Of a stretch of DNA of 64,000 nt, positions 24,001 to 27,000 are shown piece after piece. Source of the DNA: Octopus vulgaris (lineage: Eukaryota); the NCBI GenBank assembly GCA_951406725.2, contig OX597837.1, forward strand, positions 13,268,001 to 13,332,000, given 5' to 3'. Numbering within the stretch: position 1 is the first letter of the stretch; the number at the start of each line of letters is the position of its first letter. A program made the translations under genes and the position numbers. Below the pieces are notes generated by a model that ran no database searches, had not been told where the DNA came from, and saw nothing but the letters and a program-made list of their open reading frames with translations.

Positions 24001-27000
24001 CCTTTTACGTGCCACTGGCACAGGAGCCACTCAGGTGGGCCTGACATCGATCACGTTTAGATAGTGCTTTTTACGTGCCGCCAGTGAGTGGAAACTGAAA
24101 GAAGCCCATCATATAGATATATGTGTATGCCTTGTCTAGACATCAAGTGATGGTTATAATTAAGCATCATCTTCATACAAGCAAAGTCGTTTTCCAGTCT
24201 TCGGTGTAAAACATGTCCAGCCATGAAGAAATATCACCATACTTAAAAACGAGTAATAGTTAGGGTTTTGGACTCCTGGTCCTAAGATTATGGTTTCAAT
24301 CTCTGGACTGGGCAACGTGTTGTGTTCCTGAGCAAAGCACCTCCTTTCACATTACTCCAGTCCACTCAGCTGACAAATGAGTCAACCTCCAATGGACTGG
24401 CATCAGCTCCAGGGAGAAATATATACACCACAGAATCTGGGAAACTGGCCCTTTGAGCCGATGGCTTGGGAAGAACCCCTGACCCCCACCTTTTTTTTTT
24501 TTGCTTTAATATCTGCCAATTTACTTCCTTGTATATCATAAAATAACAAAAAGGAGACAATAAAATCACAAGCTTCCATTGCTATTGAGTGGTTTCAGGT
24601 TCAATCCCACAGGATGGCTCCTTAGGCAAGTGTCTTTTACTATAGCCTTGAGCCAACCAAAGCCTTCTGAATGAATTTGATAAACAGCAGCTGTGTAGAA
24701 TACTATTGTGTGTGTGTGTGTTTCTGTTTGCGCTTGTTCTTCACCACCATTTGACAACCGTGTTGGTGTGTTTACATTCTAAAGACTTAGCGGCTCAGCA
24801 AAAGAGATCACTAGAAAAAGTACCAGACTTTAAAAAAAAAAAAAAAATTTTTTTAAAAAGCACTAGAGTTGATTGATTTGAGTATATTCTTCAAGGCAGT
24901 GCTCCAGCATGACCACAGTGCAATGACCGAAATACACAAAAGATATAGCAGAGACTTACCAAAATCTCTGATTGCTTTAACATGTGGCTCCAGTCTGAGT
25001 TCATTTAAAACAAATAAAAGATCACGAATGGTAAATCCCTTTGGAACCAAATAGGCCAGCATCTCTCGAACGATGGTGTTTCCTTGTCTGTTGCCTTTAT
25101 GGATGATTTCCCGATATGTTCCTTGGCTGAAACAAAAAAACAAACAGAACGTTGTTAAACCCTCCAGCATTCAAATTACTCGGTCAGACGTACTCTCTTT
25201 ACTCTTTTACTTGTTTCAGTCATTTGACTGCGGCCATGCTGGAGCACCGCCTTTAGTCAAGCAAATCGACCCCAGGACTTATTCTTTGTAAGCCCAGTAC
25301 TTATTCTATCGGCTCTCTTTTTGCCGAACCGCTAAGTGACGGGGACGTAAACACACCAGCATCGGTTGTCAAGCAATGCTAGGGGGACAAACACAGACAC
25401 ACAAACACACACACATATATATATATATTCATATATACGACAGGCTTCTTTCAGTTTCCGTCTACCAAATCCACTCACAAGGCATTGGTCGGCCCGGGGC
25501 TATAGCAGAAGACACTTGCCCAAGATGCCACGCAGTGGGACTGAACCCAGAACCATGTGGTTGGTTAGCAAGTGACTTACCACACAGCCACTCCTGCGCC
25601 TATAACGATGAAAGGGCTCGTCCGTGATGCTTATTTATTAACATTTTTGGGGATTAATCGTGCATTGTCTTGTAGCTTTGTGATTTCTATGATGGGATTG
25701 TTTATTTTTAGAATGACATTGGCAAGGGCGAATGGAATGAGGTGGTATGGGCATGTGTTGAGGAGGGATGAAGAGCAAGTTCTGAGGAGGGTGATTCGAC
25801 ATTATTATTTCGATATTCTTATTATTATATAATGACCCTCCTAAGACAACATAATTTATTTCAACACAAAAATTCACATCCAGAATCTTGGAAACTAAAT
25901 ACAAAAACGATGCAAAATAATTAAATATATCTACAATTGAATTGACCCAAAGATCAACTAGTTCATAGCCAAATACCATTTTCTCTAAAATTCAATTCAG
26001 TGATTCTCAAATCTATTTTGCTATAGAACCTACCGTATGATTTTCCAAAAGTTGTGGAATTCATACTTATATATTATGGATAATTCCCACCAATTTAATT
26101 CTAATGAGACATTACATTAAATAATAGAAATATTAAAATTACTAAGTCTCTATAAAAGAGATTACGACAGCGTTTACTGGAAATTAATTGTTATCGCCAT
26201 ATTAATATGGCATTCTTATAGATATAAGAATAATCGCTGCCGCTGGTCAGCTCCATGAGGCCACCGCCATCAAGATAGCTATTGATACACGATCTGTATC
26301 CATTATAACCTTCGAACAAGGGAGGTCAGCCGCTTCACACTGCCAGTCCAACAGCTACAGACGCGTTTCGGGGTATTGCCCCTTGTCAATGTAGCGCAGT
26401 CAGACCCGCAGGTGTCGCCACTGACGTCTCTGTTCGAAGGCTTCTATTTACCTAGTTTCAGTGGAATATATCCACTTGTTTTCAATAATAGAAATATTAA
26501 AATTACTAAGTCTCTATAAAAGAGATTACGACAGCGTTTACTGGAAATTAATTGTTATCGCCATATTAATACGGCATTCTTATAGATATAAGAATAATCG
26601 CTGCCATGGTCAGCTCCATGAAAACAAGTGGATGTATTCCACCAAAACTAGGTAAATAGAAGCCTTCGAACAGAGACGTCAGTGGCGACACCTGCGGGTC
26701 TGACTGCGCTACATTGACAATTGACCCAAAGATCAACTAGTTCATAGCCAAATACCATTTTCTCTAAGTCAGTGATTCTCAAATCTATTTTGCTATAGAA
26801 CCTACTGTATGATTTTCCAAAAGTTGTGGAATTCATACTTATATATTATGGACAATTCCCACCAATTTAATTCTAATGAGGCATTACATTAAGTATTTTA
26901 GAGAAAGAATTTAATCACTATAGAAAATATCTAATATCTGTTTTGCTTTTGCATGAGGGTCACCTGTGCCAATAATAAATATATGAACTGGTTCAACTTC

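What the first reader, a model, noticed from the sequence alone, without database searches (positions are those of the whole stretch)
26121..26720. 364-bp repeat carrying a hammerhead ribozyme with a compensatory U3-A8 core (candidate cephalopod retrozyme/Penelope family)
Seen: minus-strand 26395-26354 reads GCUACA UUGACAA GGGG-CAAUA-CCCC GAAA CGCG UC UGUAGC. This is a well-formed minimal type I hammerhead, except the CUGANGA box is UUGACAA. It sits in a 364-bp unit that restarts in tandem at 26485 and is followed by an inverted piece. Established: positions 3 and 8 form a Watson-Crick pair in the active hammerhead, so C3U plus G8A is compensatory. Minimal hammerheads with a palindromic stem III mark Penelope-like elements and tandem non-LTR retrozymes, which yield small circular RNAs. 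Inference: this is a self-cleaving retroelement family that strict CUGANGA searches would miss. This locus has only one complete ribozyme, so circles would need longer arrays elsewhere.
Basis: partly seen in the sequence, partly recalled or inferred. Interest (0 to 1): 0.78.

Follow-up and report, generated by a model that had tools for sequence, protein, structure and literature searches.

The report
Ribozyme-bearing parasite of Penelope retrotransposons
A 364-base non-coding repeat, scattered in over two thousand pieces through this animal genome, carries a hammerhead-ribozyme motif whose unusual U3-A8 core is the family norm, and its copies show the insertion marks of Penelope-like jumping genes, so it is likely a self-cutting RNA parasite (a 'retrozyme') copied by those elements: a new member of a known kind.

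Summary
The 364-bp unit (26484-26121, minus strand) belongs to a dispersed family (2,144 pattern matches, 0 in the control). U3-A8 is the family norm, not decay: 153 of 157 copies, none C3-G8. A homologous, more diverged family has C3-G8 (27 of 31), so positions 3 and 8 covary. Stems I and II show compensatory changes, and stem III stays palindromic in three forms. The ribozyme is canonical type I, not 'minimal'.

Copies carry Penelope-like (PLE) marks: partial tandems, inverted 5'-truncated arms, TA-microsatellite targets, and two fixed 3' ends 60 nt apart (101 of 110 arms). Of 61 two-armed insertions with both ends at those sites, 59 use one of each. Neither end is the ribozyme cut site. Intact RT/GIY-YIG PLEs with U3-A8 hammerheads share the genome, but none examined shares flanking sequence with the unit.

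Verdict: a non-LTR retrozyme, likely a non-autonomous PLE. U3-A8 in PLE hammerheads is published (PMC4209133). Cleavage, circles and the partner element are untested.

The parts
26121..26484 (-). Full 364-bp unit of the non-coding retroelement (unit positions q1-q364; q = 26485 minus window position)
   Evidence: 96-100% identical near-full copies at about 40 loci on many contigs; 4 differences from the majority of 37 close copies, none in the ribozyme core
26354..26395 (-). Type I hammerhead motif: helix I 6 bp, core with U3 (26389) and A8 (26384), helix II 4 bp, predicted cut after GUC between 26360 and 26359
   Evidence: sequence, scan, column counts in 157 copies, pair counts; cleavage itself inferred
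26361..26366 (-). Self-complementary helix III hexamer ACGCGU, the predicted dimer interface
   Evidence: 148 of 157 copies hold a perfect palindrome in one of three forms: ACGCGT 80, ACTAGT 35, ACATGT 33
26346..26405 (-). Extension of helix I beyond an internal loop; the ribozyme caps a long rod in the predicted fold of the unit
   Evidence: folds; 82% of cells paired, 2 of 7 pairs with changes on both sides, one position mostly unpaired
26121..26180 (-). About 60-nt 'tail' between the two fixed 3' ends of the family (q298-305 and q356-364); this copy ends at the long site
   Evidence: 44 and 57 of 110 arms end at the two sites
26485..26621 (-). 5'-truncated tandem copy (q227-364), the pseudo-LTR of this insertion; it carries the other family allele at q242-243
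26619..26720 (+). Inverted arm (q1-102); its outer end lies atypically inside the ribozyme core, at a stretch of near-identity with the target
25940..26123 (+). Left copy of the long flanking duplication
   Evidence: seen at 1 of 144 insertions examined, so specific to this locus
26719..26895 (+). Right copy of the flanking duplication (7-bp deletion, few substitutions)
43325..43740 (-). Second, older insertion of a sister subfamily (76% identical): q48-364 at 43642-43325 with a decayed U3-A8 ribozyme, plus an inverted arm at 43643-43740

Best explanation
This is one copy of a dispersed 364-bp non-coding repeat with a conserved U3-A8 hammerhead motif and Penelope-type insertion anatomy, likely a non-LTR retrozyme that is copied in trans by the RT/GIY-YIG protein of a Penelope-like element (PLE). 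Shown: the family, the motif, its covariation, the two fixed 3' ends, the partial-tandem and inverted arms, the TA-repeat targets. Inferred cycle: tandem arrays are transcribed; two ribozymes pair through the palindromic helix III and cut after GUC; monomers are probably ligated to circles, as in mussel and axolotl retrozymes. A PLE protein then nicks AT-rich DNA and starts reverse transcription inside the RNA at q~364 on one target strand and q~304 on the other. It reads through the ribozyme site and past one unit length, giving a partial tandem on one arm and a head-to-head inverted arm on the other. U3-A8 likely arose once from C3-G8 and was kept through successive subfamilies.
For: Family: 2,144 matches of a 3'-region pattern and 620 of a ribozyme pattern, 0 in both reversed controls. 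Core: 153 of 157 copies U3/A8. 0 of 14 core positions differ among four subfamily majorities while 91 of 364 columns do, and N7 does (P about 0.02). Pairing: 91.7% of 712 cells paired, 10 of 21 pairs with changes on both sides, against 27-44% paired in slid controls. 3-8 covariation: a family homologous outside the ribozyme (E 1.8e-14) has C3/G8 in 27 of 31 copies; one change on a 97/98-supported branch of a 17-row tree. PLE anatomy: 101 of 110 arms end at two sites, 68 of 102 in TA/TAT-type microsatellites, 28 of 110 cross the unit junction. 59 of 61 two-armed insertions with both ends at those sites use one of each. These match the pLTR, inverted copy and one-sided tail described for PLEs (PMC8557442) and the two internal RT start sites and AT-rich targets shown in vitro for an anole PLE (PMC11167929). 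Intact 781-aa RT + GIY-YIG ORFs with pLTRs, two 3' ends, TA targets and U3-A8 hammerheads occur in the same genome. Circular folds of five subfamily representatives give z -4.2 to -8.1.
Against: No cognate autonomous element was found. Apart from an independent insertion of the unit itself (L110), the 30 GIY-YIG loci and 7 longer PLE stretches show no similarity to the unit by BLAST or profile. Their hammerheads have weak helix I and a tail of about 35 nt, not 60. 5' truncations do not pile up at the cut site: 15 events in q125-150 against 14 in q90-124, P 0.39 (P 0.013 against the rest of the unit, in a bin chosen after looking). The genome therefore gives no direct trace of cleavage. The anole PLE ribozyme was dispensable for insertion in vitro, and 8 of 9 Xenopus retrozyme dimers did not cleave in vitro. 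Covariation counts reflect a handful of subfamily-level events, not independent ones. The antisense strand folds about as well as the sense strand. 15 of 76 two-armed insertions, this locus among them, have one end at neither site.
Confidence: 0.8

Rival explanations
1. Same element and same PLE mobilisation, but the template is an uncleaved linear multimer from a tandem source locus; the ribozyme only trims transcripts (or acts rarely) and no circle is used for insertion.
For: No 5' pile-up at the cut site. Unprocessed RNA was the dominant insertion substrate for the anole PLE. This locus and L012 carry different family alleles in successive units of one arm, which a monomeric circle read twice cannot give without a template switch or later conversion. 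Arrays up to 5.5 units exist.
Against: Repeats within an arm agree at 149 of 158 polymorphic-site comparisons (95.7 expected at random) and opposite arms at 213 of 221 (129.7 expected). This fits a single monomer template, but also a homogeneous array; sites are linked, so these are not independent counts.
Confidence: 0.35
2. The copies are just 5'-truncated ends (pLTR fragments) of an unseen autonomous PLE, not an independent non-autonomous element.
For: Hammerheads sit in pLTRs, and most PLE hammerheads occur as isolated truncated copies (PMC4209133). My survey of autonomous PLEs was limited to the best GIY-YIG matches.
Against: The unit closes on itself: q364 joins q1 with no ORF between, in 28 of 110 unbiased arms and in arrays of up to 5.5 units. 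The same closed unit of about 360 bp holds across subfamilies down to 60% identity. PLE protein matches near family loci are few and scattered fragments.
Confidence: 0.08
3. A SINE-like element mobilised by a LINE, or a DNA-level repeat (satellite, Helitron or MITE derivative) in which the hammerhead is a passenger.
For: LINE open reading frames lie near some copies; no PLE partner was identified by sequence.
Against: No poly(A) or simple-repeat tail of its own, no short TSDs seen in 30 junction pairs printed, and no terminal inverted repeats. Two fixed internal 3' ends with a one-of-each rule and more-than-unit arms are PLE marks. Compensatory changes show selection at RNA level.
Confidence: 0.06

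Closest known systems
Non-LTR retrozymes of animals (Cervera and de la Pena 2020, PMC7229834, parts 2-4 of 6 read; Li, Clavereau and Pollet 2026 preprint 10.64898/2026.07.22.740005, parts 1-3 of 5 read)
   Same: Unit of 150-450 bp (mussel 350-390), GC under 50% (43%), canonical type I hammerhead with palindromic helix III in each unit, tandem copies, strongly self-paired predicted circle, coexistence with autonomous PLEs.
   Different: Core is U3-A8. Most copies are dispersed, 5'-truncated and two-armed rather than long arrays. PLE dependence is supported here by insertion anatomy (two fixed ends, one-of-each rule, TA targets), whereas the sections I read argue from co-occurrence and pLTR similarity. 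Cleavage and circles are shown there, not here.
Penelope-like elements with C-terminal GIY-YIG and their non-autonomous derivatives such as MRC1 (PMC8557442, passages; PMC11167929, parts 1-2 of 4)
   Same: Partial tandem pseudo-LTR, inverted 5'-truncated copy, tail on one end only, AT-rich and (TA)n targets, hammerhead in the repeat.
   Different: No ORF; tail about 60 nt against the 30-40 nt reported; no 3'-end similarity to any autonomous family examined.
U3-A8 hammerhead variants: Schistosoma mansoni Cercyon PLE min-HHR (PMC4209133, parts 1-2 of 4) and natural variants in Perreault et al. 2011 (PMC3088659, passages)
   Same: The same compensatory core pair; PMC3088659 states that ribozymes covarying at these positions were already shown active in vitro (the paper it cites was not held).
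   Different: Here it sits in a canonical 6-bp/4-bp type I scaffold in a short non-coding unit, and the switch from C3-G8 can be placed on one branch within a single element lineage.

Membership tests
Type I hammerhead ribozyme | Conserved core with a Watson-Crick pair at 3-8, G12-A13-A14, A15.1-U16.1 and an NUH cut site | tested here: met
   U3/A8 in 153 of 157, other core columns at 144-157 of 157, N7 variable; C3/G8 in a homologous family, 27 of 31
Type I hammerhead ribozyme | Helices I and II supported by compensatory changes | tested here: met
   helix I 97% paired, 4 of 6 pairs changed on both sides; helix II 93%, 3 of 4 (34 selected rows)
Type I hammerhead ribozyme | Site-specific self-cleavage | not testable with these tools
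   no raw RNA reads available; 5' truncation points give no step at the cut site
Type I hammerhead ribozyme | Match to an Rfam hammerhead model | tested here: inconclusive
   no match at E up to 10, but two canonical C3-G8 relatives are missed as well
Minimal PLE hammerhead (min-HHR) | Helix II of 7-8 bp, helix I of 4-5 bp, bulged base before helix II | tested here: not met
   helix I 6 bp plus extension, helix II 4 bp (definition)
Non-LTR retrozyme | 150-450-bp unit, GC under 50%, canonical type I hammerhead in each unit | tested here: met
   360-366 bp, GC 40-46%
Non-LTR retrozyme | Tandem copies holding at least two ribozymes | tested here: met
   not at this locus; dimers, trimers and a 5.5-mer elsewhere
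Non-LTR retrozyme | No protein-coding capacity for RT or endonuclease | tested here: met
   no tblastn match of the PLE protein anywhere in the window; the unit closes on itself
Non-LTR retrozyme | Highly self-paired monomer | tested here: met
   circular fold z -4.2 to -8.1 on 25 shuffles each; antisense similar
Non-LTR retrozyme | Expressed as linear and circular RNA | not testable with these tools
   only assembled contigs of runs not on record as RNA
Non-autonomous Penelope-like element | Partial tandem (pseudo-LTR) and inverted 5'-truncated copy | tested here: met
   28 of 110 arms cross the junction; 76 head-to-head two-armed insertions among the loci held
Non-autonomous Penelope-like element | Two RT start sites giving a tail on one end only | tested here: met
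   101 of 110 arms end at two sites; 59 of 61 use one of each; tail about 60 nt
Non-autonomous Penelope-like element | AT-rich or microsatellite targets | tested here: met
   68 of 102 3' flanks are TA/TAT-type repeats, mean AT 0.91
Non-autonomous Penelope-like element | Sequence similarity to the end of an autonomous family | tested here: inconclusive
   none among 30 GIY-YIG loci and 7 longer stretches; the survey covers only the best-scoring of 6,136 candidates

The most novel reading that the evidence does not exclude
The copies are a genome-wide footprint of how a retrozyme moves: a dimeric Penelope RT-endonuclease primes both target strands on one monomeric circular RNA, at two fixed sites 60 nt apart, and rolls past unit length through the religated hammerhead. 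The lineage also records a U3-A8 catalytic-core switch that stayed functional through successive waves, alongside PLEs with U3-A8 and A3-U8 cores in the same genome.
Probability: 0.35. Interest if true: 0.7.

Novelty: new member of a known kind. Interest (0 to 1): 0.45.

Why it matters
The kind (non-LTR retrozyme, non-autonomous PLE) and the U3-A8 core are both in print, so the headline is not new. What this family adds is usable evidence on two open points. (1) Which enzyme moves animal retrozymes: the 2020 paper names PLEs as strong candidates and the 2026 preprint argues from co-occurrence and pLTR similarity. Here the insertions themselves carry a PLE signature with mapped start sites, giving a 364-nt substrate and intact candidate proteins for an in vitro test. 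(2) Tolerance of the hammerhead core in nature: C3-G8 and U3-A8 occur in homologous elements, and A3-U8 in a PLE of the same genome. In practice, CUGANGA-based surveys undercount ribozymes in this genome by at least hundreds.

Tried and rejected
U3/A8 as decay of one copy: rejected.

Long target-site duplication as a family trait: rejected, 1 of 144 insertions.

Ribozyme cut site as an element boundary: rejected; no 3' end at q125 among 234 arms and no sharp 5' pile-up.

Autonomous partner between two ribozymes 5.8 kb apart on C2: the interval holds an unrelated two-ORF element whose second ORF begins like a LINE endonuclease (my reading of the translation, no family scan), inserted into a tandem.

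Partner among GIY-YIG loci: no shared sequence. No PLE ORF beside 30 loci of the C3-G8 family or the 15 loci. A Pfam accession recalled from memory did not exist. A further protein search for other PLE families was not run (one search failed on stop codons), so that survey stays narrow.

Rfam: no hammerhead match for this unit or for two C3-G8 relatives.

Expression: no RNA holder listed. Contigs of eight coded runs (six guessed RNA, two of unknown kind) cover the unit but cannot show ends, strand or level; taken as no evidence either way.

A 359-bp C3-G8 tandem family (L225-L234) was not shown homologous outside the ribozyme by profile.

Literature searches for the family: hammerhead + Penelope + octopus, octopus + Penelope + Neptune + retrotransposon, retrozyme + cephalopod and tail/twin priming/retrozyme listed no paper whose title or abstract start describes it. 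Repeat databases could not be searched, so it may be catalogued there. Lunse et al. (PMC5785218) and Przybilski and Hammann (PMC1986816) were not held, and the preprint's supplements are closed; any of these may already list such variants.

Full report
Observation. I number the unit q1-q364 on the minus strand from 26484 to 26121. The ribozyme spans q90-131, U3 is q96, A8 is q101, and the predicted cut follows q125. A relaxed scan of the whole window gave this single hit. In element orientation the locus reads: flank copy, inverted q102-1, direct q227-364, direct q1-364, flank copy. The flank is duplicated over 184/177 bp at 93% identity, with near-identity between the ribozyme core and the target at the outer junction. 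Such a duplication occurred at 1 of 144 insertions examined, so it is probably a local repair event (inference).

The family. A search of the own genome scored 40 of 2,002 candidates and returned near-full copies at 96-100% identity. 37 such units differ from their majority by 1.7% on average. A second insertion in this window (43325-43740, 76% identical) led to older subfamilies. Exact patterns gave 620 (ribozyme), 1,083 (middle) and 2,144 (3' region) matches, each with 0 in the reversed control; these count arms, not insertions. 70 distinct full units fall into subfamilies at 77-98% identity to the window unit. A 17-row tree of 12 U3-A8 representatives and 5 C3-G8 units shows a ladder-like succession.

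The ribozyme. In 157 distinct copies, 3/8 is U/A in 153, C/A in 2, U/G in 1, A/A in 1 and C/G in none. Leaving out loci found by the core pattern gives 139 of 141. Position 7 varies (T 73, C 69, A 14, G 1), as expected of the one free core position. Helix III is a perfect palindrome in 148 of 157 copies, in three forms, so substitutions there came in pairs; this fits dimer function as described in PMC4209133 and PMC7229834. On 34 rows chosen by hand from 114 haplotype loci to span subfamilies, 91.7% of 712 cells pair and 10 of 21 pairs change on both sides. Slid controls give 27-44% paired; one of five measures (further pair types) did not beat shuffles. These are a few inherited events, not independent ones. 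Among four subfamily majorities, 91 of 364 columns vary, 0 of 14 core columns do, and N7 does (P about 0.02). A pattern with the canonical core found 215 matches (0 control). One of these families matches a profile built only from sequence downstream of the ribozyme (best E 1.8e-14), matches the whole-unit profile at all 30 loci fetched, shares its anatomy, and has C3/G8 in 27 of 31 copies. The tree needs one change between the two states, support 97/98. The root is by midpoint only, so 'U3-A8 is derived' is an inference from C3-G8 being canonical. By the definitions in PMC4209133 the scaffold is canonical type I, not minimal. The likeness of its loops to the Schistosoma tertiary contact is recalled, not tested.

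Insertion anatomy. I took the first 100 places listed for the 3'-region pattern on contig C1 as a sample unbiased for the ribozyme and parsed 110 arms. 3' ends: 44 at q298-305, 57 at q356-364, 9 elsewhere; none at the cut site, also among all 234 arms held. Of 102 arms ending at or beyond q295, 68 abut TA/TAT-type microsatellites. 28 arms cross the q364-q1 junction. Among all loci held, 76 head-to-head two-armed insertions were found: 59 have one short and one long end, 1 two short, 1 two long, and 15 have one end at neither site, including this locus. PMC8557442 describes partial tandems, an inverted truncated copy, a tail often on one end only and (TA)n bias for PLEs (passages). PMC11167929 shows in vitro that an anole PLE protein cuts and extends both strands of AT-rich DNA and starts at two internal RNA sites that delimit the tail. 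The one-of-each rule fits priming of the two target strands at the two sites (inference).

Template. Polymorphic sites agree within an arm in 149 of 158 comparisons and between arms in 213 of 221, against 95.7 and 129.7 expected at random (47 insertions, 9 linked sites). Both arms therefore usually come from one haplotype. That fits a monomeric circle but also a homogeneous array; this locus and L012 are mosaics. 5' truncations are spread along the unit, somewhat denser around the whole ribozyme region but with no step at the cut. Reverse transcription thus commonly crossed the cut site, so the template was uncut or religated.

Partner. The genome holds many RT + GIY-YIG elements (148 matches of 150 scored, 6,136 candidates). 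One young family has a 781-residue frame with Pfam GIY-YIG and RVT_1 matches (the latter just under its cut-off). It also has a cysteine linker of the Neptune/Nematis type (motif described), pLTRs, two 3' ends about 35 nt apart, TA targets and a U3-A8 hammerhead with an ACATGT palindrome. It shares nothing else with the unit, so the cognate partner is not identified.

Comparison. The element fits non-LTR retrozymes on every feature I could test (PMC7229834) and non-autonomous PLEs on anatomy. The 2026 preprint already proposes that the two are the same and reports cleavage in only 1 of 9 dimers tested. U3-A8 is in print for natural hammerheads and Schistosoma PLEs; a search for both pair names listed only the latter. 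Also consulted without changing the reading: PMC6765202 (passages), PMC7151607 (one passage), PMC2920678 (part 1 of 2). Earlier scan notes held nothing for this genome or sequence. A word search listed analogous non-coding units with PLE-type insertions in other genomes, which I did not test.

Verdict. Real, well supported at sequence level, and a new member of a known kind; interest 0.45. Cleavage, circles and the mobilising protein are inferred, not shown.

Noticed in passing
L112, L238-L245 (motif near locus position 1501; e.g. L242, L245): A PLE family whose 3' region holds a small hammerhead-like motif with an A3-U8 core and an ACCGGT palindrome: 14 matches, 12 A3/U8 and 2 G3/U8, 0 control. 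PLE ORF sequence lies directly upstream in L112, L242 and L245. A third 3-8 pairing in one genome.
   Followed up: partly
L122 and L125 (ORFs at 406-1485 and 1745-4090; 268-1707 and 1626-3971): Young 4.7-4.8-kb PLEs with a separate upstream ORF (479 residues in L125, no convincing Pfam match) before the 781-residue RT-EN frame, whereas canonical PLEs are described with a single ORF.
   Followed up: partly
L107 and L113, downstream of the GIY-YIG match: Another PLE family with a hammerhead-like motif that has U3-A8 and GCAA in place of GAAA, with an ACCGGT palindrome (read by eye).
   Followed up: no
L225-L234: A very young (98-100% identical) 359-bp tandem family with a canonical C3-G8 hammerhead, one arm of about five units, and two 3' ends about 47 nt apart. 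Probably the best substrate for a cleavage control.
   Followed up: partly
family-wide, upstream partial copies: 5' truncation points of upstream partial copies appear to cluster at q316-340, about 25-45 nt into the second round. This could mark a stall at a protein-bound end region; not tested against detection bias.
   Followed up: partly
L091 (G000:C2): A two-ORF element of about 5.5 kb, LINE-like by eye, with an open 1,140-residue frame sits inside a tandem of the unit, with q48-75 present on both sides.
   Followed up: no
L221, 3253-5252: A 5.5-unit array at 99-100% internal identity, four ribozymes matching an intact pattern: a candidate source locus.
   Followed up: partly
window 25452-25555, 24590-24693, 28369-28453: Copies of another abundant short repeat (SINE-like by recall) and (TA)n tracts surround the locus.
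   Followed up: no
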